Positions 1-24,421 of a stretch of DNA of 64,000 nucleotides are shown piece by piece (the first letter of the stretch is position 1; every line of letters starts with the position of its first letter). Made by a program: the position numbers and the translations under genes. A model generated the notes under the pieces. It made no database searches, was not told the DNA's origin, and saw nothing but the letters and a program-made list of their open reading frames with translations. Location of the stretch: IMG/VR virus record IMGVR_UViG_3300043427_003501, positions 8,548 to 72,547 of that record; one strand, 5' to 3'. This DNA is from a virus.

Positions 1-48
1 TTCGCCAGTTCGACCGGGTGATCGGATTCGCGACATCGAGGACATCAA

Positions 49-1712: not shown

Positions 1713-2032
1713 AACCCATCACCATCGACCGAGCCGTGATCCAGCAGGCGCTGGAGGCGTTGGAAAGCCTGTTCACGTTGCAAGTGGACTATGCCCGTCC
1801 CAAGCAATGCGGAGACGCCATTACCGCCCTCCGCGCCGCGTTGGAGCAGCCGGAGCAGGAGCCAGTGGCGTGGATGCACAGGCACATTGAAGGCAACGTC
1901 ATTACGCACAGGCCCGCCGACTTGGATAGGCACCCCGACAGATGGACATTTCTCTACAAGAACCCGACGCCATGTGAAACCTGTCAGGCGCTGGCCCGCA
2001 CTGTGATGATGGATCAGATGGGGGCAGCATGA
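1709..2032 (+). CDS. small mosaic phage protein (AALEQPEQEPVAW type)
   Basis: AAGGAG RBS, ATGA overlaps on both sides. Confidence 0.65.
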   Translation: MKPITIDRAVIQQALEALESLFTLQVDYARPKQCGDAITALRAALEQPEQEPVAWMHRHIEGNVITHRPADLDRHPDRWTFLYKNPTPCETCQALARTVMMDQMGAA

Positions 2033-2232
2033 CCCAATGGAGAAACATAACCGGAGAAGCAGAAGACGGTCGTCTTGTTACGCATGTCGTTCCTGTTGCT
2101 GACTTGCGTGAACACTCGCTCACCTCTAAATGCTGGTGTGACCCAGACCTTGATGAGTGGTATCGGGTTGCCACGCACCACAGCGCCGACAACAGAGAAG
2201 CGTTTGAACGCGGGGAAAGGAAAGCATCATGA
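2029..2232 (+). CDS. small His/Cys protein (HVVPxxDLREH...CWC...HH)
   Basis: ATGA-coupled on both sides; metal-ligand pattern. Confidence 0.6.
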   Translation: MTQWRNITGEAEDGRLVTHVVPVADLREHSLTSKCWCDPDLDEWYRVATHHSADNREAFERGERKAS

Positions 2233-2621
2233 CCACACTACGCGAAGCCGCCCAGCAAGCTGTCGCGATGCTGAAGACGGGAATGCCAGAGTACGACGCT
2301 CACGATGTGCTGGAGGTGCTTGAGGCCGCGCTGGAGCAGCCGGAGCAGGAGCCGGTGGCGTGGATAAGCCCTGCGTCTGAGTCAATGATTGGCAAAACAG
2401 ACGAGAACGGTTCGGCGTATCACATCATTACGACCAGCAAAAAGACGGCCAACAACTCAGTCCCCCTCTTCACCTACCCACCCCGCCGCGAGTGGCGAGG
2501 GCTGACGGAGGAGGAAATCATTTCGCTGGCAAATGAACCGCGATGGCCTGTAGGAAATAGCTACGTTGTGCCATTCGCCAGAGCCATCGAGGCCGCGCTG
2601 AAGGAGCTAAACCATGAGTGA
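2229..2621 (+). CDS. small mosaic phage protein (EPVAW...LTEEEI...FARAIEA)
   Basis: Coupled ORF; shares a 41-bp repeat with 1709..2032. Confidence 0.65.
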   Translation: MTTLREAAQQAVAMLKTGMPEYDAHDVLEVLEAALEQPEQEPVAWISPASESMIGKTDENGSAYHIITTSKKTANNSVPLFTYPPRREWRGLTEEEIISLANEPRWPVGNSYVVPFARAIEAALKELNHE

Positions 2622-2880
2622 ACAACCCGAAGCACTGCGGCTGGCTACCCAACTTGAAAAGTATTGGGGCGCAGAGAGCGGCCACGACCGCGAACGACAA
2701 GCCGCCGCCGAACTGCGCCGCCTGCATGCGGTGAATCAGGAACTGCTGGAGGCGTTGAAGTTGGCGCTGTCTGCGCATGGCGTGCTTCTGCTGAGCGACC
2801 CCCCGCAAGATGCTTGGAAGACCTACGGTGTGGAGCAAAAGGCCCGCGCCGCCATCAAGAAAGCGGAGGGGCAAGCATGA
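2614..2880 (+). CDS. hypothetical protein
   Basis: AAGGAG RBS; coupled ORF. Confidence 0.6.
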   Translation: MSEQPEALRLATQLEKYWGAESGHDRERQAAAELRRLHAVNQELLEALKLALSAHGVLLLSDPPQDAWKTYGVEQKARAAIKKAEGQA

Positions 2881-3080
2881 TTCGTCTTAGTTCGCCGCAC
2901 AGCGGCACCGTCCAGTACGTCTCTCCGCAGGCCATAGCCCGCGTCATCGAAGCAGGCGCATCCAGTCAATGGCACGGAATCCGCTCGATTGTGAAGACAT
3001 TCGACGGCGCGACCTTGGAATGCAGCGAGACAGCGCACGAGATCAACGCCGCGATCGCCAAAGCGGAGGGGCAAGCATGA
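2877..3080 (+). CDS. small beta-rich protein, possibly FlbD-like fold
   Basis: MIRLS...YVSPQAIARV...SIVKTFDG...CSETAHEI pattern; flanked by a 21-bp direct repeat. Confidence 0.45.
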   Translation: MIRLSSPHSGTVQYVSPQAIARVIEAGASSQWHGIRSIVKTFDGATLECSETAHEINAAIAKAEGQA

Positions 3081-3331
3081 GCCGCGACGACATCATCCGC
3101 ATGGCGCGGGAGGCTGGCGACGTTGAAATTGACCGTCGTGGCCGAGAGACTTTCAGCTACGACAGCTATGGCCTGGAACGCTTCGCCGCCCTTGTCGCCG
3201 CTGCCGAGCGCGAGGCGTGTGCGAAGGTGTGTGACCAGAAAGTTGATGCCGAGTACGCCACGGGGAAGGTTGACCACAACGAGATGGGATGGACGCAGGC
3301 TTGCGCCATTGCCATTCGCGCAATGGAGTAA
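3077..3331 (+). CDS. small phage protein (MSRDDIIRMAREAG...LERFAALVAAAEREACA)
   Basis: GGAGG RBS, ATGA overlap. Confidence 0.65.
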   Translation: MSRDDIIRMAREAGDVEIDRRGRETFSYDSYGLERFAALVAAAEREACAKVCDQKVDAEYATGKVDHNEMGWTQACAIAIRAME

Positions 3332-3333
3332 GT

Positions 3334-3570
3334 ATGAACAGGGATAACGTCGTCAAATTGGCGCATGAGGCGGGATGTGCGGTGTACGAGGGCAGAGATA
3401 TTGCCCCTGCACTGGAACGCTTCGCCGCCATCATTCTCCAAAATAAACGGTCTCTTACAGATGCCGAAATTGGCGCAATTTGGTTTGAAGCCAAGATTCC
3501 TGGTCTGACCGAAACTAATGCCAGACTGCTCATTAGGGCAACTGAGCGCAAGATCAGGGAACTTCAATAG
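3334..3570 (+). CDS. small phage protein related to 3077..3331
   Basis: GGAG RBS; MNRDNVVKLAHEAG...LERFAA. Confidence 0.6.
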   Translation: MNRDNVVKLAHEAGCAVYEGRDIAPALERFAAIILQNKRSLTDAEIGAIWFEAKIPGLTETNARLLIRATERKIRELQ

Positions 3571-3636
3571 CCAGTATTTCTACTCCTGATTCGTTGCGAC
3601 AGAATTATCAGATCGCAACACAACAAGGAGCGTCAT

Positions 3637-3885
3637 ATGCGGATTCGCAAACTCGCCGAGCCTCTCAACGACAAAGCTGAGGGTTATTGCGGCGGCTTTC
3701 CCTACACCACCGAACTCGCCGGACCTGACGGCGTTTCCATTCATTTCTGGGTTGGCGCTCAGACAGTTACGGAAGAGATGCTGCAGGCCGCTCTGACGAA
3801 GGCGCGCAGGGCGCGAGATGTCGTCTGTGCCAGCTGGAGCGAAGGCATGCCCATCAAGTTCTGGGCGCATCAGGACATCAATTGA
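3637..3885 (+). CDS. hypothetical early protein
   Basis: AAGGAG RBS, promoter-like leader. Confidence 0.6.
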   Translation: MRIRKLAEPLNDKAEGYCGGFPYTTELAGPDGVSIHFWVGAQTVTEEMLQAALTKARRARDVVCASWSEGMPIKFWAHQDIN

Positions 3886-3895
3886 AGGAGCGCAC

Positions 3896-4087
3896 ATGAC
3901 GAGCAAATGGAAATGCCGCGAGTGTGGCTCGATCAACGTCCAAATCTCTCTGCCTACGTGGTATCGAGAGTCCCAAGATGGCGATCTCATGCTTGTGGAT
4001 ACTGACTACGAAGCCGATCCTATCTACTGGTACTGCGAGGACTGCGATACGTCCGATAACGGCAGTCCCGCTTTTGCATTGAGGTAA
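3896..4087 (+). CDS. zinc-ribbon protein
   Basis: CRECGS...CEDC; AAGGAG RBS. Confidence 0.65.
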   Translation: MTSKWKCRECGSINVQISLPTWYRESQDGDLMLVDTDYEADPIYWYCEDCDTSDNGSPAFALR

Positions 4088-4089
4088 AG

Positions 4090-4305
4090 ATGACCTACGC
4101 ACTACACATCCGACGAGGAACTTTGGTTATTACAGACCCACAACGCCGGTGCTACAACGGAGCCTATGCCTCGTCGCATATGGAGTGGTCACCCTGGGAG
4201 TTGTGGATCAAGGACTTCACATTCGATACGTTGGAGAAGGCTGAATACACGGCCAAGCTGTTCTGCCGCGAGGATCAGCAAGTCAAAGCTGTGGAGCTTG
4301 AGTGA
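4090..4305 (+). CDS. hypothetical protein
   Basis: GAGGT RBS; coupled ORF. Confidence 0.55.
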   Translation: MTYALHIRRGTLVITDPQRRCYNGAYASSHMEWSPWELWIKDFTFDTLEKAEYTAKLFCREDQQVKAVELE

Positions 4306-4790
4306 ACATCTTCGTCCTTCACCGTGAACCGGCCATTGCAGCGCAAATGGCCTGTGACAAGCACTGCGTGAAGATGATTCTGGAAACGGCTCAGATGCTG
4401 GCCACTGTCATTCAGGCCAATGGCGGTACGGCCAAGTACAAGCCAACACATGCAGGCCATCCCTGCACGATTTGGGCAGGCCAATCGGCTCACAACTTCG
4501 CCTGGTTATGGCATCACGGCCTGGCGCTGTGCGAGGAGTACACCTTCCGCTACGGCCGTACTCACGCCTGCCATGAACTGTTCGAGGGCGAGCTCCGCAA
4601 GCTGCCTTCTTCAGTACCTAAAGCAGGGCTGACCACATTCGCGCAGGCAATGCCTGAGCAGTATAAGCACCCTAATCCCGTCATTGCCTACCGTCGCTAC
4701 TACCTGGGCGACAAGGCGCGTTTTGCCAAATGGACGCTACGTGATGAGCCATTGTGGTTCACCTATAAGCGTCCGGAACTGGAGGTTTGA
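4302..4790 (+). CDS. pyrimidine dimer DNA glycosylase / endonuclease V-like family protein
   Basis: MNIFVL...DKHCVKMILETAQML...HPCTIW...QAMP...AYRRYY signature; activity not established. Confidence 0.75.
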   Translation: MNIFVLHREPAIAAQMACDKHCVKMILETAQMLATVIQANGGTAKYKPTHAGHPCTIWAGQSAHNFAWLWHHGLALCEEYTFRYGRTHACHELFEGELRKLPSSVPKAGLTTFAQAMPEQYKHPNPVIAYRRYYLGDKARFAKWTLRDEPLWFTYKRPELEV

Positions 4791-5230
4791 AAGTGATCTA
4801 CTTCGATAAGGTTGGAAACAAGATTTCTCCAGCCAAATGGCATGAACTTCGTGCCGACCACTCCTACACCACTGTTCGTGAGTTTGCCAATGAAAAAGTC
4901 TCCATTCGAGTTATTTGGCATGGCGCTCTGACACTGGGTGAGTCGAAGTCATTCAGGGACACATGGCCACTGTTTCAAATCAGCGTATCAAATGCCAATG
5001 CGGCTGGTGAGTTCAAGCCTGACCCCGTTCTGGACTGCAAGACGTTCCCTTACGAGAATATCGCCATTCAGGCATACGAGCACTTCCTTCTCCAGTGGTC
5101 GGAATGCAAGGTGAACGACAGTGGCGAGTTTGAGGAAGTGGGTAACGAGCTGACACCGCCTCCGCCACCAAGTCCCGACATCCCTACCTCGACGATCAGG
5201 GGTACGGGTACGGACCTGATGGTGTGGTGA
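4787..5230 (+). CDS. hypothetical protein
   Basis: TTG start overlapping upstream stop. Confidence 0.55.
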   Translation: MKVIYFDKVGNKISPAKWHELRADHSYTTVREFANEKVSIRVIWHGALTLGESKSFRDTWPLFQISVSNANAAGEFKPDPVLDCKTFPYENIAIQAYEHFLLQWSECKVNDSGEFEEVGNELTPPPPPSPDIPTSTIRGTGTDLMVW

Positions 5231-5341
5231 GGAGTACGGGAGCAGCTCTGTATAGGGCTCTCGGACGGTGGCGCAGCCACTGTCGGCTATTACAGGCAAA
5301 GTCCTAGGCGTTTGTCCAAAATGGCAGCCAAGACGCCCAAG

Positions 5342-5400
5342 TCCTGAATTATCCTGAATTATCCTCAGCAGGATAATTCCTCATAAAAGTCCATAAAAGT
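5342..5400. repeat. tandem TCCTGAATTA x2, hairpin GAATTATCCT/AGGATAATTC, CATAAAAGT x2
   Basis: Read directly in intergenic DNA. Confidence 0.7.
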
Positions 5401-5696
5401 ACCCTGCGGCCGCTGTTGACACTCCTATGATCCAGCGGTATTCGCATGCGCGCTGGCGCGCATTCTTGATCAGTTCCTGCTCGGCACGTTCCCTACAAGG
5501 TGTCCTGCGAATACTGTTGTAACTCCTATCCGTGAGGTTGATACTTCAACCATCGACAAACCCGCTGATGGAAATGAGAGCAAGGCCCAACATTCAAGTC
5601 TCCAAGCAATTTGCTTGTAACTCCAAGCCTGTGTCTCTACAGTTCAATCATCGATTTATCGATGCCGTTCAACCCGCTCACCAAAGGAGTTTTTCC

Positions 5697-6551
5697 ATGA
5701 GCAAGCGCAAATCCAAGCAGCAGTCCGAACTGGACACCTTCTTTCACGCACTGGGCGTGGTGGAAGCCCCCACAACCGATGACGCTCTGTTGGCGTCGAT
5801 GATCGGTGATCTCAACCTGGACGACGATGGCGAACTGCCCGAGCCGCCCAGCGAGATCATCGTGCCTGTCGATATGCTCTCGGGCGATCCGCTCGAAGCT
5901 GCGGTGGCAGACATCGAGAAGGCAGAAGCTGTTCAGGCTCTGTACGAGGAGCAGGACTCTGAGTTCGAGACTTCGGAGGCTGACAAGCCCTCGACCGAGA
6001 CGGTCGCCGACTCTGCTAAGCCCGCGAAGGTCAAGAAGGAGCGTGCTGCGAAGGCTCCCAAGACCACTCGCGTCACCTCCATCACGCATCAACCGGGCGA
6101 TCGTCTGGTGGCGATGCTCGGTGCCGACTACAAAGACTTCCTCGTCTTCTACAAGTCGGACGACACGATCGCTGCGGAGACTCGCGTCGAGTCCTTCGTG
6201 ACCGCCATGAACGATCGCGAGGCGATTGCCGATAAGGTCAAAGACAAGGCCGTCATGCTGCTGACTTGGCTCAAGGCTGGCAAAGATGTCTCGGAGCTCA
6301 ACGAGGTTCTTCGTCGGGCGTTCACGGTTCTCTTCCGAGACGGTGAACTGACATCGGGCAAGGCGGGCAATCTCCAGACCGACCTGCTGTCCAAGCCGTA
6401 CTCACCGGGTACGTCGGCATCGCAGGCGAATCAGATGTTCATGCTGTTCCCGATTCTCGGTATCACCCAACGCGAGAAGGGTCGCATGGTCGTCAATCCG
6501 GACAGCACCATCGCTGAGGCGATGAAGATCAAGCTGGGTGTCGCGGCGTAA
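5697..6551 (+). CDS. acidic N-terminus plus helical/winged-helix-like C domain; distant paralog of 15045 and 16999 genes
   Basis: AAGGAG RBS; YSPGTSASQANQMFMLFPILGI aligns with CSEGTASTQASSTRMMLRALGV. Confidence 0.7.
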   Translation: MSKRKSKQQSELDTFFHALGVVEAPTTDDALLASMIGDLNLDDDGELPEPPSEIIVPVDMLSGDPLEAAVADIEKAEAVQALYEEQDSEFETSEADKPSTETVADSAKPAKVKKERAAKAPKTTRVTSITHQPGDRLVAMLGADYKDFLVFYKSDDTIAAETRVESFVTAMNDREAIADKVKDKAVMLLTWLKAGKDVSELNEVLRRAFTVLFRDGELTSGKAGNLQTDLLSKPYSPGTSASQANQMFMLFPILGITQREKGRMVVNPDSTIAEAMKIKLGVAA

Positions 6552-6554
6552 TTG

Positions 6555-6581
6555 GGAGGGGCTTAGGCCCCTTCCTTTTTT
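6555..6581 (+). terminator. Rho-independent terminator
   Basis: GGAGGGGC-TTAG-GCCCCTTCC followed by T6. Confidence 0.8.
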
Positions 6582-6623
6582 GAGCGTGTCACGTTGGCGC
6601 GCTGAAACAAGGAAGGAACCTAT

Positions 6624-6944
6624 ATGGAGGATGGAATCATGGATGCTGGCACAGCTTACTTGAGCCTGATGCGTGAGCGCAATGCCTATCGCGACATCGC
6701 CCTGCAGATGCAGATGGCGCTAGATGCGATCCGCGCTCTGCACCCTTCTGACACCGAAGAAGGCTACAACGAGTGGGGCGAAGCGGAATGCTTCCATAGA
6801 GCTCAGCGTATCGCCTTCGACACCCTCAATCAACTCAACAAGGAGTATGGAAGTGGACCTCTCGATTCTGGACAAGATGTCAACCGAGGCGCTGCAGGCG
6901 ATTCGAGATCGGACTCAGGACTTGCTTCAGGCGCGTTCGCGTAG
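6624..6944 (+). CDS. hypothetical protein
   Basis: AAGGA RBS; overlaps next ORF. Confidence 0.5.
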   Translation: MEDGIMDAGTAYLSLMRERNAYRDIALQMQMALDAIRALHPSDTEEGYNEWGEAECFHRAQRIAFDTLNQLNKEYGSGPLDSGQDVNRGAAGDSRSDSGLASGAFA

Positions 6945-7167
6945 TGTTATCAGAGTCGGCGCCTTTGCCGAGTTCAAGGACAAGAATGGCGTCGTGCGGA
7001 CTATCCAAATCACTCGGGTCAACGCCAAGAGCGTCACCGGGTTGGAAAACGGCAAGCTCCGCTGGCGCGTCAGCCCTCAGTTTCTGACAGTCAGGACTTT
7101 GCCAAGCGCTCCCGTGATAACCGCCGAGCGCCATGTGCCCAAGACCGAAGCCACCGCCGTTTGGTGA
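6847..7167 (+). CDS. hypothetical SH3-like protein
   Basis: IRVGAFAEF...ITRVNAKSV...WRVSPQFL pattern; start uncertain. Confidence 0.5.
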   Translation: MEVDLSILDKMSTEALQAIRDRTQDLLQARSRSVIRVGAFAEFKDKNGVVRTIQITRVNAKSVTGLENGKLRWRVSPQFLTVRTLPSAPVITAERHVPKTEATAVW

Positions 7168-7563
7168 CAGTAAGGCGCCTTTTTGGCGTTTTTTGGCTTC
7201 AGACCAAAATTTCCTAGGACTTAGCGGTTCTCCCTAGCGGCGACTGCTGCGCGACACCAGCACACGATCTAGGACTGCGGTGTTCCTGCCATCAGAACGC
7301 GCTACAAGCGATTTCCAAGATGTCGGTAATGGTGAGGTACCACCGACAAAACGAAACCAAGGCCAAGGTGTTTTCGTCGGTTTGCCCTAGGGGCTTCCTA
7401 TAGCACTTTGTGCTATAGGCCGATAAATAGGAGATTTCAACTCGCCTCTGTGAACTCCCTGCAAAAGCGCTTCAAAGTCCTATAGCGGCTCGCAACAATG
7501 AGTCATGTCGCAAACACGGCGACAGGCACAAGCGCCATGCGCTTCATCTCAAGGAGTCACAGT

Positions 7564-8007
7564 ATGTGGGACAAGGAAGGTATTCAAAGGCTATTAGCCG
7601 AGAACGACAAGGCTGTCGTTCGGGCAGTGGCTGCAATCTATGCGCGCCAAACTGCATCCGAGCAGAGCACAGAGTCCACCGTTGAGTCCAACGGTGTCGG
7701 TTTCAACTACGCGGATGCTAGGCTTGGCACCTACTATGGGCAGTACATCGCTCGTCGGGGTGCCTTGACTGGCCATCATCTTCAGAAGGCTCGTCGGATG
7801 ATGATGAAGTATTGGCGTCAGTTGGCTGAGATTGCGAACGCCAAGCAGCCGACTGTGGTCGAGCCCAAGATCGAAGCTGCTGGCTTTCGTCCGATCGAAC
7901 CTGACGAGGATGTTGGCAACTACCTCGAGGAGAAGATGATTCACGACGAGATGGCCGCTGCAGGCATGTTGGAGACCACAACTCCGCGCCCTGCTGATTG
8001 GGCTTGA
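7564..8007 (+). CDS. conserved-looking phage early protein
   Basis: AAGGAG RBS; IYARQTxxEQ...NGVGFN...KYWRQL. Confidence 0.7.
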   Translation: MWDKEGIQRLLAENDKAVVRAVAAIYARQTASEQSTESTVESNGVGFNYADARLGTYYGQYIARRGALTGHHLQKARRMMMKYWRQLAEIANAKQPTVVEPKIEAAGFRPIEPDEDVGNYLEEKMIHDEMAAAGMLETTTPRPADWA

Positions 8008-8095
8008 TCTCGGGAATCAGTCACGGGTGACTTGTGTTTCCTGCAAGCGCAAGTCACACTTCACTTGTCACTTTTGACAGCAAAGGAGAAACCAT

Positions 8096-8608
8096 ATGGG
8101 TTTGGATATGTATGCGTACAGGATTCGCCAAGACATCATTGGCGATGCTCAAGTGGACGTTGACGTCAACGATCTCGTCCTGAAGGCCAGTGGCTACACG
8201 ACGCCCTCAGATGAGGAGTTTGAGAAGCTCAGCGACGAGGAGAAGAAGCGGCACTACGCCGAAGTTCACAAGCTGATCGACCGGGCGAAGGAAGACGGCA
8301 TCTTGGACACTGACTTTGCCTACTGGCGCAAGTTCAACCACCTGCATGGGTGGATGGAGGAGCTCTACAGGCACAAGGGCGGCCAAAGCGAGTCCTTCAA
8401 CTGCGACACGGTTCGCCTGATGCCAGACGATCTGGACGCGCTCTACGTCCTGGCAGCCAGCAAGGCGTTGGCACCGACGCAGGGCTTCTTCTTCGGAAGC
8501 TACGAGCCCTTCAACGACGACGACAAGGGTGAAGTCATCGACTTCATCCAGAAGGCTCGCTCGGCCATCAGGGACGGTTACGCCGTCCTGTACTCATCCT
8601 GGTGGTGA
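8096..8608 (+). CDS. MGLDMY...YWRK...SWW type phage early protein
   Basis: AAGGAG RBS; recognisable motif string. Confidence 0.75.
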   Translation: MGLDMYAYRIRQDIIGDAQVDVDVNDLVLKASGYTTPSDEEFEKLSDEEKKRHYAEVHKLIDRAKEDGILDTDFAYWRKFNHLHGWMEELYRHKGGQSESFNCDTVRLMPDDLDALYVLAASKALAPTQGFFFGSYEPFNDDDKGEVIDFIQKARSAIRDGYAVLYSSWW

Positions 8609-9977: not shown

Positions 9978-10324
9978 ATTTCAGCCAAGACTTCAAACAA
10001 GCCTACGTTGACGAGCTCCTGCATCAGGTGCATCACCGAGCAGGCAATGAGTGGCCCTGGCTCGAGGAAGACGAAATGGTGGGCTCTGTGTATTTTGTGG
10101 AAGACAAGGAAATTGTCTACTGCACGCCCGCTGTTCGCCAATACCTTGGCGGTGAGGAAGTTCCTCCCAACGACAACTGCCCAATTCAGTTCTGTCGGAT
10201 CAGAGAGGAGAGTGACTCCCACGAAATGACCGAAGTGGACTACTTCCTCACTTACAACATGCCTTATGACTTGGCGCGATATCAGGCGCTTGTAGGGGCT
10301 TACAAGCAAGGAGCTTTGGTATGA
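9974..10324 (+). CDS. acidic hypothetical protein
   Basis: ATGA-coupled. Confidence 0.55.
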   Translation: MNFSQDFKQAYVDELLHQVHHRAGNEWPWLEEDEMVGSVYFVEDKEIVYCTPAVRQYLGGEEVPPNDNCPIQFCRIREESDSHEMTEVDYFLTYNMPYDLARYQALVGAYKQGALV

Positions 10325-10611
10325 ACGTCCGAGCTGAACTCGATAAGGCAACGGAGCCTGTTGTCACCATCTCCACCAGCCACCTGTCCGAAGCCACAAA
10401 GGAGTGGCTTAGCAAGGACTTGCTCAGGCGTGATGGAAAGATGGCAGGTATGGAGTGGGACTACGGTTGGATGTTGTTCGTAGGCAATTGGGATGAGGAT
10501 ACCCCTGAAGATTTGGCTTGCATCCTCAAAACCTGCAACGACTACGCATACTCCTGGGTCCGATTCGACTGCGATGCGCCTGCCTGTCGCGCATTTCCGG
10601 AAGCCTCGTAG
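10321..10611 (+). CDS. DUF5983-like protein
   Basis: ISTSHL...YGW...PEDL...WVRFDCDA pattern. Confidence 0.55.
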   Translation: MNVRAELDKATEPVVTISTSHLSEATKEWLSKDLLRRDGKMAGMEWDYGWMLFVGNWDEDTPEDLACILKTCNDYAYSWVRFDCDAPACRAFPEAS

Positions 10612-14571: not shown

Positions 14572-14750
14572 TCGTATATATGTATATGTAAAGGAAAGAA
14601 GAAAGGAAAGAATGTTTGCGGGAAGTTGCCGGCTCCTAGGGGTACGGCACGGCTCCTGTAAGGACGATAGGAGCTCGGCAACGAGGTACGGGAAGCCCCG
14701 AGTGGCCAATCGCCGTCAAAGGTTCCTAGGCCTGCCTAGGCCGAGGTTGG

Positions 14751-14826
14751 AAGCTCCTATAAGGTTCCAAGGCAAGCCTAGGGCGCCGTATAAGGATGGC
14801 TCCAAGCTCCTATAAGGTTCCAAGGC
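14751..14826 (+). repeat. 23-bp direct repeat AAGCTCCTATAAGGTTCCAAGGC x2
   Basis: 14751-14773 and 14804-14826. Confidence 0.9.
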
Positions 14827-15044
14827 GAAGTGTAAGGATCGCCCTATAAGGTTACGGTCCAAAAAGTATCTCCCTAGGGAAAAAGCATGGATTTGCCAGG
14901 CCGTTCCGGTTCCCATGTGTAAGGTTGGGAACTTGCAATGTCTCCTGGGAAAGCTGTTGCACCTCCAAAAGTGGCACATCACAATACAGTCACTGGGTAG
15001 TGATTCTGCTCCCGGTGCTCTTTCAATCCATTTTGGAGGCCATC

Positions 15045-15686
15045 ATGGCAAAAAAGTCCGTCTCTTCCGCCCCTTCCGCTTCTTCTGTTGACGCAATCGA
15101 GGCCGCTCAGGCCGCTTTACTCGCGTCCATCAAGCGCCGCATTGACAACGCGCCCAACGACAACCAGGCGGAGAAGCTCTCGGCCGAGTTCAAGTTCTTC
15201 GAGGGTGCTTCGGGGGCTCGTATCCTGAGCGCAGCTGCTGCCAAGTACGAGCTCGACATCGGAGCCCTCGCTGCTCAGGTGGCCGTGCTCAGCAACGAGG
15301 ACAAGGATCGCTTCCTTGCGGTCTACGCCCTCCAGAAGGTGCGCAAGGCACTCTATGCCCTGGCCAACGACCTTCGGAGCTTCTTCGATGGGTACACGAA
15401 CTCCATCCTCTTCAACATGGCGAACCTGCAGGCCATCAACAACAAGGAGGCCAGGATGAGCCTGTGCAAGGCCATCGAGTACACGGAGCTGGAGCAAGTG
15501 CAGGCCATTCGTAGGCTGCTGAACTGCTCGGAGGGTACGGCTTCGACACAGGCCAGCAGCACTCGGATGATGCTGCGGGCTTTGGGTGTCGCCAACGTCG
15601 TCAAGCGTAAGGCCGGTGACTCGATCTCCTTCACCGAGAGCAAGGCCGCGCAGGGCATCTTGGCGATGTACGCGACGAAGGCGTAA
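15045..15686 (+). CDS. helical early protein, paralog A (TASTQASSTR family)
   Basis: GGAGG RBS; GC-rich codon usage; aligns end to end with 16999..17577. Confidence 0.85.
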   Translation: MAKKSVSSAPSASSVDAIEAAQAALLASIKRRIDNAPNDNQAEKLSAEFKFFEGASGARILSAAAAKYELDIGALAAQVAVLSNEDKDRFLAVYALQKVRKALYALANDLRSFFDGYTNSILFNMANLQAINNKEARMSLCKAIEYTELEQVQAIRRLLNCSEGTASTQASSTRMMLRALGVANVVKRKAGDSISFTESKAAQGILAMYATKA

Positions 15687-15708
15687 TCAGGGGGCTGCAA
15701 GGCAGCCC

Positions 15709-15729
15709 AGGGAGCGTCAGCTCCCTTTT
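15709..15729 (+). terminator. Rho-independent terminator
   Basis: GGGAGC-GTCA-GCTCCC-TTTT. Confidence 0.65.
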
Positions 15730-16124
15730 ACGGGTACGGCTGAGCCCTAGGCGAGATCAGGATCAGGGTACGGCTGGACAGCTGTACGGGTGAGTAGGAG
15801 TACGGCTGTACCGAAGTAGGCCGGTATTCCTAGGCCTTAGCAGGCCACGGTAGGGGATTGCAGGCCACTGCAGGAGGTAGGCCTTTCCTAGGCCAGCCTA
15901 GGCCGCCGAAGGACTTCAGGCCACCGCAGGCATTCTCAGGGCAATAGGCCGACTCCAGAACATCTGAGAAACGCCAAGGAGAAAACGTAGGGCCGTTGCA
16001 AATTGCCCTGCAAACCTCTCACAGGGAGCTTTGCAGGAGACATGCACCCCCACCATCAAAACCCAAAGATGGCTTGCTGTAATGAGTTTGCTGCGATGTT
16101 GCAGCGGTTCTTTCGGAGAGGTGT

Positions 16125-16460
16125 ATGGTCCAAGTCTCGCGAGTTTCTGTTTTGCTCCTGAATACCGACGACATGGGGAAGTTTTACTTCGCCAAGTCTG
16201 ACGCCGAGCGTGAAATCATGGCGCTGGAAACGTTACAGGCAGGTGGGTACCAGTACGTCAAGGGCAGCATCATTGTGGAAAGTCTGTTTCGCAAGGATGC
16301 TGCTGAGGAGGTGTTCGACTTGACCAACAATCCAAGTCGTGAAGAGGAGCGTGAGCTGCTGTATGGACGTCACCGCAGCGTGTCCTCAGGTGACATCGTG
16401 GATGTGGACGGTTCCAAGTTTCTTTGCCTACCTGTTGGTTGGCTTCGCTTGGCGGCTTGA
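16125..16460 (+). CDS. YodL-like domain protein
   Basis: EEVFDLTN...RSVSSGDIVDVDG...C.PVGW pattern; GGAGAGG RBS. Confidence 0.65.
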   Translation: MVQVSRVSVLLLNTDDMGKFYFAKSDAEREIMALETLQAGGYQYVKGSIIVESLFRKDAAEEVFDLTNNPSREEERELLYGRHRSVSSGDIVDVDGSKFLCLPVGWLRLAA

Positions 16461-16469
16461 TGGGTAGAT

Positions 16470-16498
16470 GAGAAGCCGACCAGGAGTCGGCTTCTTTT
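16470..16498 (+). terminator. Rho-independent terminator
   Basis: AGAAGCCGAC-CAGGA-GTCGGCTTCT followed by TTT. Confidence 0.8.
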
Positions 16499-16675
16499 GG
16501 AGCTGTTCGCTTCCTAGGGATGCCCAGGGGTACGGCTGAGCCGAAGAGGACTTCGGGAAGTTTGGGTACGGCAGGGTCGAAGAGGGTCTTTCGGAGTACG
16601 GCGGTCTCGGAGTACGGCTAGGGCGAAGAGGGCCTTCCTAGGGCTAGCGCCCTCGCGGGCCAGCCCGCCTGGCGG

Positions 16676-16770
16676 CCATAGCGGCCGCCTATCGGCCCGT
16701 CGCCGCCATAGCGGCCTGCTATCGATAGCCTGGCCCTACCGCCACGCCGTTTCCATAGCGGCTCCCTATC
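16676..16770 (+). repeat. CCATAGCGGC-N3-CTATC x3
   Basis: Copies start at 16676, 16706, 16753. Confidence 0.85.
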
Positions 16771-16774
16771 CTGG

Positions 16775-16840
16775 GTCTCCTATAAGACCCAAGATGTCTC
16801 CTATAAGACCCAAGACCCGGGTCTCCTATAAGACCCAAGA
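16775..16840 (+). repeat. 20-bp iteron-like repeat GTCTCCTATAAGACCCAAGA x3
   Basis: Exact copies at 16775, 16796, 16821. Confidence 0.9.
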
Positions 16841-16998
16841 CCCACGCCATAGAGGCCCTCCATTACATCATCGGCCCCATTGTAAAATTTCATCGTCGCG
16901 CCGTTGCAACATGCTGCAAAAAAGCGGTTGCAGCATGCGCCACCATGTTATGATTGCATCACTGCGATGTTGCAGTGTTCGATTCTGAAAGGTTCATC

Positions 16999-17577
16999 AT
17001 GAACAAGGTTCAAAAAGCCCTCCTCGCCGCCCTCCAGACCCGCATCGATTCCGCGCCCAATGCGAACCAAGCCGAGAATCTGTCCGCAGAATATAGATTC
17101 TTTTCAGATACTAACGCCGGTATTATTATCGACAAAGTATCTCACATAATCGATATTAATAAACTCGCAAAGCAGATTGCAATATCTGAAAAGTCTAATT
17201 CTGATTTTATCGCAGTATATGCTTTGCAGAAAATTCGTAAAATGATTTATTCGCTTGCGAATAATACTAAATCATATATTGACGGTTATTCTAATTCGAT
17301 TATCTTCAATATGGTCAAATTGAATTCTGAAATTACTAATAAGTCTGCACTTGTTGCATTATCTAAATCGGTCGAATATACCGAATTCGATAAGGTGCAA
17401 GATATTAAGCGCACAATATCTGTTGCAGTATCTACCGCATCCACTCAAGCATCATCCACCCGTCAAATGCTGCGTGTTTTGAATATCGCCAACGTTACCA
17501 AGCGCAAGAATCAAGATGAATTTACTTTCATCGATTCTGATATTGCAAAACAAGTAATCGCATATTATCAGGTATAA
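16999..17577 (+). CDS. helical early protein, paralog B (AT-rich recoded copy)
   Basis: GAAAGGT RBS; shares RID.APN.NQAE.LSAE, AVYALQK.RK, DGY.NSI.FNM, TASTQASSTR.MLR with paralog A. Confidence 0.85.
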   Translation: MNKVQKALLAALQTRIDSAPNANQAENLSAEYRFFSDTNAGIIIDKVSHIIDINKLAKQIAISEKSNSDFIAVYALQKIRKMIYSLANNTKSYIDGYSNSIIFNMVKLNSEITNKSALVALSKSVEYTEFDKVQDIKRTISVAVSTASTQASSTRQMLRVLNIANVTKRKNQDEFTFIDSDIAKQVIAYYQV

Positions 17578-17583
17578 ATAATA

Positions 17584-17615
17584 AGGTGCGGTATATAATA
17601 TAATATACCGCACCT
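17584..17615. repeat. 13-bp-stem hairpin AGGTGCGGTATAT-N6-ATATACCGCACCT
   Basis: Perfect inverted repeat after paralog B. Confidence 0.85.
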
Positions 17616-17644
17616 AATATAAACCACATTCGAAAGGTAATATC

Positions 17645-17746
17645 ATGGTATATATAATCGGTGCGATTCTGATTCTCTGCGGTATATTCTTTATCTGTGA
17701 GAATATATATATTCGAAGAGAATATAATAAATACCTGAAGAGATAA
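17645..17746 (+). CDS. 33-aa single-TM peptide (not in ORF track)
   Basis: GAAAGGT RBS like paralog B; MVYIIGAILILCGIFFICENIYIRREYNKYLKR. Confidence 0.55.
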   Translation: MVYIIGAILILCGIFFICENIYIRREYNKYLKR

Positions 17747-17954
17747 TATACTATCGAGAAAACCAAAGTCTTAGGTTTTCTCTATCGGTGCGGGAGCGCT
17801 CCCTTCCTCGTTCCGACCCTCTCCCAGACCCCCTTATACGGCCAGGCCCGAGTCTCCAAAGACCATCCTTATAGAGCCAAGCTCAGAGTGCAGAATAGCG
17901 TCTTTGTAGAGCCGAGCCCGACCTTGATGCGGGCGTCCTTACACCGGCAAGAGC

Positions 17955-18245
17955 TCACTGACGCTCTTTGAGCGCCTTCAAGAGCAGATCGAGGTCTTCG
18001 GCTGAGAACTTTGACAGTTCCTTGAGCACGGAGGTCTTGCCAACCTTGTTTGAGGTCTTGGCATCTTGCTTAGCCTTGATCGCGGCTTCGAACTCGGGCT
18101 TGCCCTCGCAGACCTCGAGCAGCGCCAGAATGATGTGCCCTTGAGAGAGCTTGTTCTGGCGAGCAAGTTTGGCGATTCGCTCCTGTATCTCGGTTTCGAG
18201 AACGATGGCGGAGCGCTTGGGTTGGTTGGTGACAGACTCACTCAT
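17955..18245 (-). CDS. ribbon-helix-helix (Arc/CopG-like) DNA-binding protein
   Basis: KRSAIVL (beta) ETEIQERIAKLARQNKLSQGHIILALL (helix-helix); GGAG RBS. Confidence 0.65.
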   Translation of the reverse strand: MSESVTNQPKRSAIVLETEIQERIAKLARQNKLSQGHIILALLEVCEGKPEFEAAIKAKQDAKTSNKVGKTSVLKELSKFSAEDLDLLLKALKERQ

Positions 18246-18333
18246 GACTTTCTCCAGTTATACAAATGCAAAATTGCATCATTGCAAGAGTATAGTCTCT
18301 TGCATGTTATAAGCAACAGTGAAATTTAGGCTA

Positions 18334-23202: not shown

Positions 23203-23517
23203 ATGACCGAAGACAAGGAAACTTTTGAGCAGATGGTTCTGCGATCCTGGAATGAGGAGGCAGGCGCCAAATCGTTCGTACTGTTCAGCTCACCCGATTG
23301 CGCTCCATGCAGGCGCATAAAAGCCACCATTGAGTCGCTAGAGGATGATCTGGGAAAGATTGTAGGGTTCGTCAACGTGTACCACGCAGTCGCAGCCGCC
23401 TCTCAGACCAAGGTCAGATCAGTGCCAACGCTGATTCGCTTTGAGCGGGGTCAAGAAGTGGCGCGCATAGTTGGCGAGACAAGTCGGCAAAAGCTCGAGG
23501 CGTTTCTTCGTGACTGA
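23203..23517 (+). CDS. thioredoxin-fold protein
   Basis: CAPC active site, VRSVPT cis-Pro loop. Confidence 0.85.
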   Translation: MTEDKETFEQMVLRSWNEEAGAKSFVLFSSPDCAPCRRIKATIESLEDDLGKIVGFVNVYHAVAAASQTKVRSVPTLIRFERGQEVARIVGETSRQKLEAFLRD

Positions 23518-24421
23518 AGACATGGAAGTCATTCGCCGGCCAGTGCCGAGCAACCATACGCTCTCGCTTTTGCCGAACGTATACGTTGAGCGCGGCACTA
23601 TCGAGGACTGGAATCTGCTCCACGAACTCCACTACAAGGCGGAGTCGCTAGGTATCGGTCCTCGCATCTACCGCTGCGTACTCAACGGACAAACAATCGG
23701 CGTGGGTGTCATGACGGTGCCCAAGATTCTGCTGTCCGGACGGAATGAAGTCTTCAGACATCTGAAGCCCAACACCGGAGGTATGGACTCAAGGTTGATC
23801 AATCGACACCGAGCGTACTGGATCAACGATCACGCCTGTACCAACTCGCGGCTGGTGCTGGACACCATGTACCGAGGCGCCGGCATCGCCTACCGAATGC
23901 AGAACATCATGATGCGAATGACTGGCTGCCAGGTGATTGAATTTCAGTCGTCGATGAGCAAGTTCAACCCCTTCGCTCAAAAGGCGGGCATTCGCTTTAC
24001 CAGACCGAAGCGCAGCGCCAACTACGAGCGCGGCGTCATGTTCTTCCAACGATGGTTCATATCCAATCCGTCGGACTACATGGGAATCATGACGGAAATC
24101 AACGAGATGAAGCCGGCGGTGCGAAGTAAATGCGAAGCCGAGATGCGTAAGTTTTATTACGCCTGTTCGGCACTCGAGAAGACAGGAAATGCGCGTTTTC
24201 GAGGAGAAGATCGGCGCGACAACATGGAAGTCAGCTATCTGCTCAAGTCACTTCAGCAGCTGACGTTGGCTTCACCTCTGTACGGCGCATACATCAATCC
24301 CGACGCCAGCCCGCAAAAGGGAGTCTCAAAACTGCCTCCCCGCGTTCCAATCATCGCTTTCGACAACCAACCGCCGGATCAACCGCTGGACATTTCCAGG
24401 CTGCCGGCTAAGTACGTGTGA
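23510..24421 (+). CDS. GNAT-fold acyltransferase
   Basis: SRLVLDTMYRGAGIA acyl-CoA-binding motif A; LHELHY, MSKFNPF. Confidence 0.75.
   Translation: MTEDMEVIRRPVPSNHTLSLLPNVYVERGTIEDWNLLHELHYKAESLGIGPRIYRCVLNGQTIGVGVMTVPKILLSGRNEVFRHLKPNTGGMDSRLINRHRAYWINDHACTNSRLVLDTMYRGAGIAYRMQNIMMRMTGCQVIEFQSSMSKFNPFAQKAGIRFTRPKRSANYERGVMFFQRWFISNPSDYMGIMTEINEMKPAVRSKCEAEMRKFYYACSALEKTGNARFRGEDRRDNMEVSYLLKSLQQLTLASPLYGAYINPDASPQKGVSKLPPRVPIIAFDNQPPDQPLDISRLPAKYV

What the first reader, a model, noticed from the sequence alone, without database searches (positions are those of the whole stretch)
16880..17790. AT-rich island in which every + strand GG is GGT, carrying a recoded gene copy
Seen: all 17 GG dinucleotides in 16880-17790 are followed by T (about 1e-8 if T is one third of bases). 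All five GAG are GAGA, and GATC, AGCT, CTAG, GTAC and GGCC are absent. The rule is strand-specific. Both RBS here are GAAAGGT instead of the usual GGAG. Paralog B has 2 Gly and no Trp, versus 8 Gly in GC-rich paralog A 2 kb away. GAATTC and ATCGAT remain, so this is not generic restriction-site loss, and the close paralog argues against simple foreign import. Inference: a terminal, first-entering segment purged of a motif that is modified, cut or bound elsewhere. With the motif-rich spacers, the paralogs and the ParB/GNAT block it may form an undescribed staged-entry or end-protection system.
Basis: partly seen in the sequence, partly recalled or inferred. Interest (0 to 1): 0.85.

Follow-up and report, generated by a model that had tools for sequence, protein, structure and literature searches.

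The report
Phage operon purged of GGA/GGC/GGG
One small operon of this freshwater phage, and its counterparts in about twenty related phages, has been kept almost free of the three-letter DNA words GGA, GGC and GGG (in most relatives on both strands), which points to a still unidentified factor that reads this very short word.

Summary
In detail: all 17 GG in 16880-17790 are GGT. It is the longest such run in the 72.5-kb record. None of 20,000 dinucleotide shuffles reproduces it, and only 7 of 5,000 synonymous-codon shuffles do.

The rule belongs to a conserved operon. That operon has a sigma70-like promoter, a 5' hairpin, a PHROG-4202 putative winged-helix gene, a tiny membrane-peptide ORF and a terminator. 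Convergent arrays of TATAAG boxes bracket it.

- Of 26 family genes from related phages, 21 carry 10 or fewer GGV+BCC sites where 38-114 are expected.
- In most of them the purge is strand-symmetric.
- It covers 0.8-2.2 kb, from promoter to terminator.
- It is the only such zone in three complete 106-113-kb genomes.
- In this window only the coding strand obeys.

AT content, codon bias and recent import do not explain it. B is not a recoded copy of A (49% identity). The 'terminal, first-entering' idea could not be tested. No modification enzyme or primase of the five families tested was found.

My best reading is purifying selection that keeps the whole operon out of reach of an unknown strand-aware reader of GGV. 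The scan has already noted three analogous trinucleotide-free phage operons on other DNA, each with a different word. I did not check those notes.

The parts
16770..16840 (+). Three direct iteron-like boxes (GTCTCCTATAAGACCCAAGA type), upstream bracket of the operon
   Evidence: the repeat finder family D8. The same three-box array lies upstream of the unit in L014, L016, L011 and L050; in L003 two boxes lie there in the opposite orientation.
16877..17791 (+). Stretch with no GGA/GGC/GGG on the + (coding) strand. It contains 17 GGT. BCC is tolerated here, with 20 sites, 14 of them in 17017-17116.
   Evidence: This is a 919-bp gap in + strand GGV; the next largest gap in the 72.5-kb record is 156 bp.
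16946..16954 (+). Extended -10 promoter element (TGnTATGAT); inferred
   Evidence: A -10-like hexamer (TATGAT, TATAAT, CATAAT, TATACT, CATACT or GATATA) lies a few bases ahead of the 5' hairpin in all 12 upstream regions printed. The consensus scan did not list it, so this is inference.
16960..16977 (+). Leader stem-loop at the predicted 5' end of the transcript (CACTGC-N6-GCAGTG)
   Evidence: Read from the sequence. Equivalent hairpins follow the -10 in the relatives. A homologous leader before ORF 16125 carries GGAGAGGT where this one has TGAAAGGT (D7).
16987..16993 (+). Ribosome-binding site GAAAGGT of gene B
16999..17577 (+). Gene B, 192 aa. It belongs to PHROG 4202/9272 and has a helical N-domain and a putative winged-helix C-domain.
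   Evidence: phrog_4202 at E 2.2e-18. AlphaFold model with pLDDT 82. Weak winged-helix matches at Z 4.5-5.7.
17581..17618 (.). 19-bp-arm palindromic hairpin between gene B and the small ORF, built from GGT/ACC pairs
   Evidence: the repeat finder I5. Terminator-like on the - strand.
17632..17638 (+). Second GAAAGGT ribosome-binding site
17645..17746 (+). 33-aa ORF: a hydrophobic helix followed by a basic tail, i.e. a small membrane peptide
   Evidence: Translation. Small hydrophobic ORFs lie at the same place in L001/L014, L002, L049/L050 and L047. No family hit.
17753..17785 (+). Terminal stem-loop. The GGV-free stretch ends 6 bp after it.
   Evidence: the repeat finder I14. First GGV at 17792.
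17833..17945 (-). Three inverted boxes (YCCTTAYA), downstream bracket of the operon
   Evidence: Boxes at 17833, 17868 and 17938. Three or four such boxes follow the unit in L014, L016, L003, L011 and L050.
15045..15686 (+). Paralog A, 213 aa. Ordinary composition, 61% G+C, 43 GGV and 37 BCC.

Best explanation
The island is a complete, self-contained operon. In order it holds a sigma70-like extended -10 promoter, a 5' stem-loop, a putative winged-helix gene of PHROG 4202, a tiny membrane-peptide ORF and a terminator. Convergent arrays of TATAAG boxes bracket it.

Purifying selection acts on the nucleic acid itself and keeps this operon free of the word GG[A/C/G]. In most related phages both strands are clean. 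In this phage only the coding strand is.

The most likely reason, which is inference, is that a factor tied to this phage group or its hosts reads this three-letter word in a strand-aware way. It could be a nicking enzyme, a base-modifying enzyme or an enzyme that acts on single-stranded DNA. Such a factor would hit the rest of the chromosome about every 10 bp. The operon must stay untouched so that host RNA polymerase can transcribe it when the rest of the DNA is marked, nicked or occupied.

Shown here: the purge, its extent, its conservation, its recent loss in one lineage, and its independence from codon use.
For: (1) Extent. In relatives the site-free gap is 923 bp (G001), 902 bp (G003), 1010 bp (G008), 949 bp (L003), 828 bp (L011) and 930 bp (L002). 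The next largest gaps in the same records are 74-113 bp, at a density of 75-123 sites per kb.

(2) Boundaries. The gap starts about 100-130 bp before the start codon, so it includes the promoter, and it ends a few bases after the terminator. It also covers extra co-transcribed genes in L047/G006 (about 2.2 kb) and L048.

(3) Uniqueness. It is the only such zone in three complete genomes of 106-113 kb. Among 64 strand-symmetric 'dinucleotide plus not-x' word sets, [^A]CC gives by far the largest density-normalised gap: 93.5 in G001 and G008 against a background of 20-30.

(4) All frames and non-coding DNA obey.
- Gly is always GGT, Ala almost never GCC and Ser almost never TCC, while Thr ACC is used freely. 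The three exceptions in ten purged or nearly purged genes outside this window are GCC in L015 and GCC and TCC in L008.
- The RBS is AAAGGT or GAGGT instead of GGAG.
- Terminator stems use GGT/ACC.
- Seven pooled genes hold 2 forbidden trinucleotides where about 97 are expected, against 58 GGT and 67 ACC.

(5) Selection in place, not import. Purged genes lie across the whole family tree, down to about 40% identity. L035 is 92% identical in protein to L011 and differs by 59 synonymous codons, yet it has 26 sites against 0. The changes include Ser to TCC (7 codons), Ala to GCC (3) and Gly to GGA or GGG (3).

(6) Strand awareness. The 5' 120 nt of gene B hold 14 BCC and 0 GGV. Over the whole gene, BCC is at the level expected from genome codon usage (18 observed, 15.1 expected), while GGV is 0 against 11.2 expected.

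(7) A population variant at 17368-17371 makes a new GG, and it is again followed by T.
Against: No reader was found.
- There was no C5-methyltransferase (PF00145), TGT/DpdA (PF01702) or N6/N4-methyltransferase (PF01555) in 4 partial and 5 complete related records.
- There was no DnaG zinc ribbon (PF01807) or Prim-Pol (PF09250) in the 5 complete ones.

I recall no enzyme that recognises GGV.

Other weaknesses:
- GGV/BCC is not depleted in the rest of the genome, so an unprotected genome would be hit about 6,500 times. An exempt 0.9-kb operon helps only if the damage elsewhere is tolerable or reversible.
- A duplex site looks the same from either strand. A plain double-strand cutter therefore cannot explain the one-sided pattern of this window.
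- There is no evidence on when the operon is expressed.
- Three family members (W_A, and L034 and L006, whose proteins are identical) carry the motif at or above flank density.
Confidence: 0.42

Rival explanations
1. The constraint acts on the RNA. The mRNA must lack GGA/GGC/GGG because a ribonuclease or an RNA-binding repressor reads GG followed by anything but U. Absence of the complement would be secondary, for example a need for a clean antisense transcript.
For: In this window only the coding strand obeys: 0 GGV against 18 BCC in gene B. The 3' limit sits at the terminator. The RBS avoids GGAG. In my own hand tally of the leaky family genes from the counts, coding-strand GGV is the rarer leak (39 against 72 BCC).
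Against: The purge also covers about 90 bp upstream of the predicted transcript start. In at least 12 relatives BCC is purged as strictly as GGV, at a visible cost in codon choice: TCC and GCC become the favoured Ser and Ala codons once the rule is lost. L020 and L021 leak only on the GGV side, 4 against 0. I know of no RNase or regulator with this specificity (recall).
Confidence: 0.15
2. The operon avoids its own product. The winged-helix protein, or whatever binds the flanking TATAAGG / TAGGAG boxes, contacts GG[A/G]. It is abundant enough to coat or roadblock any GG-rich DNA, so its own operon has to be non-stick. The motif-rich paralog A would then be a target of B.
For: The purge follows this gene family in all the phages examined. 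An ordinary, motif-rich A-type copy sits beside a purged B-type copy in two phages, G000 and G410. The predicted recognition helix (STASTQASSTR) is the most conserved part of the family.
Against: A 3-bp word is far below the specificity of a winged-helix protein, and GGC is purged too although it is not in the boxes. DNA binding was not tested. The fold matches are weak (Z 4.5-5.7). Earlier unchecked scan notes describe similar purges in operons that carry other genes.
Confidence: 0.12
3. The pattern is a mutational footprint. A context-specific deaminase or other lesion process acts on exposed single strands of a heavily transcribed or unwound region and removes BCC/GGV over time, leaving ACC/GGT.
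For: The purge is local, ends at the limits of transcription and comes with low G+C in several phages: 33-38% against 56-58% in the flanks. Enzymes that act on single-stranded DNA typically have 2-4-nt specificity, for example DarT2 with TNTC (passages of PMC11543638).
Against: Several purged units keep about 50% G+C, with GCGC and CGCG about six-fold enriched over the mononucleotide expectation (124 and 104 counts against 20.3), so C and G are not being lost. The expected products (BTC, BCT, GAV, AGV) are not clearly enriched. Total absence in many lineages, together with fast refilling in L035, speaks for selection. The non-transcribed promoter region is also clean.
Confidence: 0.1
4. The cause is a physical or replication-origin requirement. 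The DNA between the two iteron-like arrays would be an origin or looped segment that must lack GG/CC steps for unwinding, bending or priming.
For: Convergent box arrays on both sides of the gene, conserved in six phages, recall iteron-controlled replicons such as P1 repA with incC/incA (recalled). The module sits next to a helicase and ParB genes in 5 genomes.
Against: GGT/ACC contains the same GG/CC step and is not avoided. Replacing GG/CC by GC/CG makes the duplex more stable, not less (nearest-neighbour values, recalled). The one-sided pattern in this window does not fit a duplex property. No Rep family hit.
Confidence: 0.07
5. The island is ordinary: AT-rich foreign DNA plus codon bias and chance.
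For: The island has the lowest G+C of the record. Family genes differ from their flanks in G+C in both directions, as mobile cassettes do.
Against: 0 of 20,000 dinucleotide shuffles and 7 of 5,000 codon shuffles reproduce the pattern. Units with 49-52% G+C obey as strictly. Non-coding parts obey. The purge is kept across the whole family tree.
Confidence: 0.02

Closest known systems
Restriction-site-free first-entering DNA: T5/BF23 first-step-transfer region, and the early-injected region of Murciavirus phages facing a Type I R-M system
   Same: A limited, early-acting part of a phage chromosome lacks a sequence word that is common and harmful elsewhere. The logic is to express protective or take-over genes before the rest is exposed. 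Sources: PMC12455610 and PMC10644984, for which I saw only the title and the start of the abstract in the listing. The lack of EcoRI sites in the T5 region (Davison and Brunel 1979) is recalled, not read.
   Different: Here the word is a degenerate trinucleotide that occurs about every 10 bp, not a 6-bp or bipartite restriction site. The exempt unit is a single internal operon of 0.9-2.2 kb flanked by ordinary DNA on both sides. No terminal position is shown and no cognate enzyme is known. In this window the rule is one-sided.
Short-motif DNA hypermodification by phage DpdA (7-deazaguanine; CAjan at two motifs, iggy at GA)
   Same: A phage enzyme that marks G in a 2-3-nt context, affecting about 16.5% of G in phage iggy. 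Sources: PMC10484667 and PMC7544227, title and start of the abstract only. The two CAjan motifs being GA and GGC is recalled.
   Different: No TGT/DpdA homologue in 0 of 4 partial and 0 of 5 complete related records. I know of no report of an operon exempt from the motif in those phages.
Frequent-cutting nickases with 3-nt sites, such as chlorella-virus Nt.CviPII (CCD) with its methyltransferase
   Same: A three-letter, partly degenerate word is read on duplex DNA and cut on one named strand. This would make the orientation of a site matter for transcription. Recalled; the review PMC3017599 appeared in the listing but was not read.
   Different: The word differs (CCD against BCC/GGV) and the host is eukaryotic algae. 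No homologue was sought or found here.
Anti-phage enzymes that act on single-stranded DNA with short motifs (DarT2 TNTC; DarT1 on guanine)
   Same: 2-4-nt specificity, action on exposed single strands, reversible damage that blocks polymerases. Source: passages of PMC11543638 read.
   Different: According to that paper DarT1 has no defined consensus motif. Nothing links DarTG to these phages or their hosts.
Other trinucleotide-free phage operons noted by this scan (e1-6078740 GGT/ACC; e1-5930901 VAG/CTB; e1-6123547 GCG)
   Same: One small operon purged of one three-letter word, conserved among relatives, with ordinary or enriched DNA beside it.
   Different: The words and the phage groups differ. 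These are unchecked AI notes and I did not test them.

Membership tests
PHROG 4202 / 9272 (phage proteins of unknown function) | Significant match to the family profile over most of its length | tested here: met
   Gene B: phrog_4202 at E 2.2e-18 and phrog_9272 at 8.2e-13. Gene A: 1.3e-17 and 2.5e-17.
Winged-helix DNA-binding proteins | Helix-turn-helix followed by a beta-hairpin wing, with a structural match to solved winged-helix domains | tested here: inconclusive
   The model has H130-144, H149-160 and strands 164-167 and 174-177. Foldseek against the PDB gave no hit at E<=0.001. VIA-align matches to AF1382, MarR, ORC and MukF winged-helix domains reach only Z 4.5-5.7. No Pfam HTH family.
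Restriction-site avoidance in first-entering DNA (T5 first-step-transfer type) | The exempt region lies at the chromosome end that enters first | tested here: inconclusive
   The record is a fragment (68% complete). Complete relatives are circular assemblies with 127-128-bp overlaps. The operon lies 9-13 kb upstream of terL in 5 genomes.
Restriction-site avoidance in first-entering DNA (T5 first-step-transfer type) | The avoided word is the site of an identified host or phage nuclease | not testable with these tools
   The host is unknown. I recall no enzyme with GGV specificity. The literature searches listed none.
DpdA-type 7-deazaguanine modification system | A TGT/DpdA transglycosylase gene in the phage | tested here: not met
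   PF01702 found in 0 of 4 partial records and 0 of 5 complete relatives. The control genomes matched.
Motif-specific DNA methylation by the phage | A C5 or N6/N4 DNA methyltransferase gene in the phage | tested here: not met
   PF00145 and PF01555 found in 0 of 4 and 0 of 5 records. Other methyltransferase families were not searched.
Translational codon bias of a highly expressed gene | The bias is confined to in-frame codons and explained by codon usage | tested here: not met
   Codon junctions and non-coding DNA obey too. 7 of 5,000 synonymous shuffles give 0 GGV, and the non-coding parts hold 7 GGT and 0 GGV.
Iteron-controlled replicon (P1 RepA / F RepE type) | Arrays of direct repeats on both sides of the initiator gene | tested here: met
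   Three boxes upstream and three or four inverted boxes downstream in W, L014, L016, L011 and L050; L003 has two upstream boxes in the opposite orientation.
Iteron-controlled replicon (P1 RepA / F RepE type) | The protein belongs to a Rep initiator family (two winged-helix domains) | tested here: inconclusive
   No Pfam or NCBIfam hit. Only one putative winged-helix domain. ORC/Cdc6 winged-helix domains are among the weak matches.
Lambda-type immunity region (repressor plus exclusion gene between operator sets) | A temperate phage, with the unit expressed from the prophage | tested here: inconclusive
   A tyrosine recombinase is present in 3 of 5 complete relatives, and one record is classed as a provirus. 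One copy lies on a 450-kb Paraburkholderia MAG contig. There is no expression data.

The most novel reading that the evidence does not exclude
Tailed phages of several unrelated groups each keep one small host-transcribed operon free of one group-specific trinucleotide: GGV here, and GGT, VAG or GCG in three other cases noted by this scan. This would be the visible trace of an undescribed class of three-letter-word readers that act on phage chromosomes about every 10 bp. They could be nickases, base modifiers or enzymes that act on single-stranded DNA. Against them the phage keeps a clean operon that still works when everything else is marked. The ordinary/purged paralog pair (A and B here, and again in G410) would then be a built-in sensor of that state.
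Probability: 0.3. Interest if true: 0.92.

Novelty: new variant of a known kind. Interest (0 to 1): 0.82.

Why it matters
Motif avoidance in phages is known for 4-8-bp restriction sites and for whole genomes or first-entering ends. This case is different. A three-letter word that occurs about 6,500 times in the rest of the 72.5-kb record is excluded from one complete operon. The exclusion reshapes codon choice, the ribosome-binding sites, the terminator stems and even the amino-acid make-up (few Gly and Pro, almost no Trp). It is kept across a family that has diverged to about 40% identity, and it is lost quickly in one lineage.

That strength of selection implies a reader of GGV that nobody has described. 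It would be either a very frequent DNA mark or nick on these phage chromosomes, or a host defence with trinucleotide specificity.

The case is directly testable, and natural controls are at hand:
- modification and nick calling on virion DNA;
- synonymous re-introduction of the word on either strand;
- L011 against L035;
- paralog A against paralog B.

If the three similar notes from other phages hold, this is a general and unrecognised feature of how phage genomes are organised.

Tried and rejected
Gene B and the region against isolated phages. blastn of 14900-18300 and tblastn of gene B against 50,697 phage records gave no match, so there is no cultured relative and no host from that source.

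The DNA behind the 116 homologous proteins, including the 98% relative P0001, could therefore not be fetched. I used the search for related loci and the genome search instead.

Structure and family searches.
- Foldseek against the PDB gave no hit at E<=0.001.
- BFVD returned only uncharacterised phage proteins.
- VIA-align wide gave Z<=6.9, all of it common helical or winged-helix arrangements.
- The ESM Atlas returned unnamed clusters.
- Pfam, NCBIfam and PADLOC gave nothing usable for A, B, the co-transcribed genes of L047 and L048, or the neighbours.
- Rfam gave two sub-threshold matches only.

Search for a reader. PF00145, PF01702 and PF01555 were not found in 4 partial and 5 complete records. 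PF01807 and PF09250 were not found in the 5 complete ones. The neighbours of the unit in L011 include a 2OG-Fe(II) oxygenase (phrog_81) that is not present at this place in G000. The ParB block showed two ParB_N proteins, an ABC-type ATPase, a thioredoxin and a weak SprT-like hit, but no GNAT.

Hosts. The family was found in 1 of 401 genomes sampled from the order of G009, and that one was G009 itself. It gave 1 locus in the genome-contig scan.

Sequencing runs. No RNA holder was listed. Two runs labelled RNA-Seq are probably DNA. All four runs laid were contigs, so there is no information on expression, ends or modification.

Ideas considered and dropped:
- CRISPR PAM avoidance. PAMs made of GG or CC do not depend on the next base, and one PAM-free operon does not protect a genome.
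- Avoidance of Shine-Dalgarno-like words. GGU is part of the SD complement, and GGC and GGG are not.
- CsrA (GGA only).
- G-quadruplex or R-loop avoidance. GGT is also a GG cluster.
- Recoding to prevent recombination between paralogs. Phages with a single copy are purged too.

Literature. The searches listed no paper describing an operon-scale trinucleotide void. That is four searches of an open-access library, not proof that nothing is in print. Supplementary files were not consulted.
Full report
WHAT IS THERE. The window is bases 8548-72547 of a single 72,547-bp viral record with 54.2% G+C. CheckV rates the record 68% complete. It is a tailed phage. I confirmed a terminase large subunit, a helicase and two ParB_N proteins. 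It also has a 1471-aa and a 5211-aa ORF, which earlier notes read as tape measure and tail tip.

The finding lies in the most AT-rich part of the record. Its anatomy, in order, is as follows:
- three direct boxes of the type GTCTCCTATAAGAC at 16770-16840;
- an extended -10 element, TGnTATGAT, at 16946-16954;
- a stem-loop at 16960-16977;
- the RBS GAAAGGT;
- gene B at 16999-17577 (192 aa);
- a long palindromic hairpin at 17581-17618;
- a second GAAAGGT;
- a 33-aa hydrophobic ORF at 17645-17746;
- a terminal stem-loop at 17753-17785;
- three inverted boxes of the type YCCTTAYA at 17833-17945.

All 17 GG in 16880-17790 are followed by T. The run goes from 16926 to 17787, between a GGC at 16873 and a GGG at 17792. 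It is the longest constant-neighbour run of any dinucleotide on either strand of the record.

No dinucleotide-preserving shuffle out of 20,000 reproduces it, and T is otherwise the rarer base after G in this stretch. Gene B is the only ORF in the list with no GGV on its sense strand. The next lowest has 3.

Seven of 5,000 synonymous shuffles give zero GGV. All five G|G codon junctions precede Val codons (P = 4e-4). The same protein written in the genome's codon usage would carry 11.2 GGV on average. The non-coding parts carry 7 GGT and no GGV.

The side claims are true in the window but weak. Each missing 4-mer is expected about 3 times, and in relatives these words occur and GAG is followed by all four bases.

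THE RULE BELONGS TO AN OPERON FAMILY AND IS USUALLY SYMMETRIC. Gene B and paralog A (15045-15686) belong to PHROG 4202/9272 and share 49% of their residues.

A protein search found 116 relatives, all from metagenomes. DNA for 26 family genes was obtained from viral, metagenome and genome collections. Two of these, L034 and L006, encode the same protein and may be one phage.

Measured as GGV plus its complement BCC, the 26 genes fall into three groups:
- 21 genes hold 0-10 sites where the flank density predicts 38-114;
- gene B holds 18, all of them BCC, and L035 holds 26;
- three genes are ordinary or enriched: A with 80, L034 with 61 and L006 with 60.

In seven pooled purged genes the six forbidden trinucleotides occur twice against about 97 expected, while GGT occurs 58 times and ACC 67 times. 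Codon tables show what this costs. Gly is always GGT, Ala almost never GCC and Ser almost never TCC, while Thr ACC is used freely.

The clean stretch is not just the gene. It runs from about 100-130 bp upstream of the start codon to a few bases past the terminator:
- 923 bp in G001;
- 902 bp in G003;
- 949 bp in L003;
- 828 bp in L011;
- 930 bp in L002;
- 1010 bp in G008.

It extends over additional co-transcribed genes in L048 and in L047/G006, where it spans about 2.2 kb with about five leaks.

In whole records it is unique. The next largest gaps are 74-113 bp in G001, G003, G004, G006 and G008, three of which are complete genomes of 106-113 kb.

As a look-elsewhere control I tested all 64 strand-symmetric sets of the form 'dinucleotide plus any base but x'. 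The set [^A]CC stands far above the rest, with a normalised gap of 93.5 against a background of 20-30.

IT IS MAINTAINED BY SELECTION, NOT INHERITED COMPOSITION. Purged genes occur throughout the family tree, in both main branches. The ordinary copies fall together in one weakly supported, partly unresolved group (support 82/79) inside one branch. Units with 49-52% G+C obey as strictly as those with 33-38%, so AT-richness is not the cause.

L011 and L035 form a natural experiment. Their proteins are 92% identical. They share 133 identical codons and differ by 59 synonymous and 16 non-synonymous ones. Yet L011 has 0 sites and L035 has 26, through Ser to TCC (seven times), Ala to GCC (three) and Gly to GGA or GGG (three). 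Without the constraint the gene therefore drifts quickly to the locally favoured C-ending codons.

A population variant of the window's own gene changes four bases at 17368-17371 and creates a new GG, again followed by T.

THIS WINDOW IS THE ODD ONE: ONLY THE CODING STRAND OBEYS. In gene B, BCC is at the level expected from genome codon usage (18 against 15.1), while GGV is 0 against 11.2. The GC-rich first 120 nt hold 14 BCC and 0 GGV. The remaining 671 bp hold 4 BCC and 0 GGV against 12.8 and 10.9 expected.

A duplex site is the same object whichever strand it is read from. This asymmetry therefore argues against a plain double-strand recognition-and-cleavage model. It favours a strand-aware effect. 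Possibilities include a nick or adduct on one named strand, whose harm depends on whether that strand is the template; an enzyme acting on exposed single strands; or a constraint on the RNA itself.

Across the leaky units, coding-strand GGV is the rarer leak. By my own hand tally of the counts it is 39 against 72. But L020 and L021 leak the other way, and the preference for C-ending codons may explain part of this imbalance.

WHAT THE OPERON IS. The AlphaFold model (pLDDT 82) shows a helical N-terminal part and a C-terminal helix-turn-helix with a beta hairpin. Only weak winged-helix matches were found. There is no named family.

The module architecture is conserved in six phages: three direct boxes, the unit, then three or four inverted boxes. 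L003 differs only upstream, where it has two boxes in the opposite orientation. A -10-like hexamer a few bases ahead of a 5' hairpin recurs in all 12 upstream regions inspected. A small hydrophobic ORF usually ends the unit.

The order 'unit, helicase on the opposite strand, ParB..., terL' is kept in five genomes, with 9-13 kb between the unit and terL.

Three of five complete relatives carry a tyrosine recombinase, one is classed as a provirus, and one copy lies on a Paraburkholderia MAG contig. At least part of the group is therefore probably temperate.

The unit could be an autoregulated regulator, an immunity-type operon or an iteron-controlled initiator module. I could not decide among these.

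An ordinary, motif-rich A-type copy sits 2-3 kb upstream of a purged B-type copy in two phages of different base composition, G000 and G410.

WHAT READS THE WORD. I found no candidate. The families searched, and the records they were missing from, are listed under evidence against and under tried and rejected. GGV/BCC is not avoided in the rest of the genome.

My best reading is therefore a class of explanation, not an identified mechanism: an operon kept out of reach of a frequent, strand-aware reader of GGV so that it stays transcribable. I put 0.42 on that class. Most of the remainder goes to an RNA-level constraint, avoidance of the operon's own DNA-binding product, a mutational footprint and a physical or origin requirement. 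That selection acts on the nucleic acid itself, rather than codon bias, AT content or chance, I hold at about 0.9.

COMPARISON AND NOVELTY. The nearest known things are the following.
- Restriction-site-free first-entering DNA of T5/BF23 and of Murciavirus phages. I saw only the listing and the starts of the abstracts. The T5 EcoRI work is recalled.
- Short-motif 7-deazaguanine modification. Again I saw the listing and the starts of the abstracts.
- Three-letter nickases of chlorella viruses (recalled).
- Enzymes that act on single-stranded DNA, such as DarT. I read passages of PMC11543638.

None of these has this word, this scale or this one-operon exemption. Four literature searches listed nothing similar.

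The scan itself has three earlier notes of the same kind on other phages, each with a different word: GGT/ACC, VAG/CTB and GCG. They are unchecked, and I use them only as a lead that the class may be general.

VERDICT. Novelty: a new variant of motif avoidance, possibly the trace of an undescribed kind of reader. Interest: 0.82.

Noticed in passing
window 15045-15686 and 16999-17577; G410 6984-7580 and 10021-10608 (L074, L076): Two phages of different base composition (54% and about 43% G+C) each carry an ordinary, motif-rich A-type copy 2-3 kb upstream of a purged B-type copy of the same family. The A copies are about 8-9 points richer in G+C than their genome and the B copies are poorer.
   Followed up: partly
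L011 3938-4573 versus L035 2992-3618: These are near-identical proteins (92%), but one gene has 0 and the other 26 GGV/BCC sites, through 59 synonymous changes. This is a recent loss of the constraint and a ready-made natural control. Only a 25.5-kb fragment of the L035 phage (G411) is held.
   Followed up: partly
window 17000-17120: The first 120 nt of gene B are GC-rich and strongly C-skewed (C41, G24), with 14 BCC and no GGV. They are 70% identical in DNA to the matching part of paralog A (15120-15199). This may be an old conversion patch that was afterwards cleaned on one strand only.
   Followed up: partly
window 16091-16122 versus 16962-16993: The leader and RBS of ORF 16125-16460 are homologous (78%) to the leader of gene B, but read GGAGAGGT where B has TGAAAGGT.
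   Followed up: no
window 14657-14918: Seven further TATAAGG / TGTAAGG boxes stand upstream of paralog A. Similar larger arrays occur in L014 (189-332) and L016 (2804-2983). The box GTCTTATATAAGAC is a perfect palindrome in L011 and L002.
   Followed up: partly
G004, G006, G008 (ends of the records): The 'direct terminal repeats' of these IMG/VR records are 127-128-bp overlaps, which look like assembly overlaps of circular contigs. Their ends say nothing about the physical ends of the genomes.
   Followed up: yes
L047 4763-5290 (- strand), next to the purged unit of G006: This ORF starts with a motif that I recall as typical of NUMOD4/HNH-type homing endonucleases. I judged this by eye only and did not search it.
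   Followed up: no
G000 1-8600 and window 49-4790: The left part of the record encodes a class II ribonucleotide reductase, ThyX, an RNA ligase with an OB-fold domain, an RNase T-like exonuclease and a pyrimidine-dimer DNA glycosylase.
   Followed up: no
window 23471-24421: The ORF that earlier notes called a GNAT gave no Pfam hit at E<=0.01. The neighbouring ParB_N proteins (two), the ABC-type ATPase and the thioredoxin were confirmed.
   Followed up: partly
genome 46018-46276 (window about 37471-37729): A run of 15 consecutive GG followed by C lies on the + strand inside the 1471-aa ORF, probably a Gly-rich or repeat segment.
   Followed up: no
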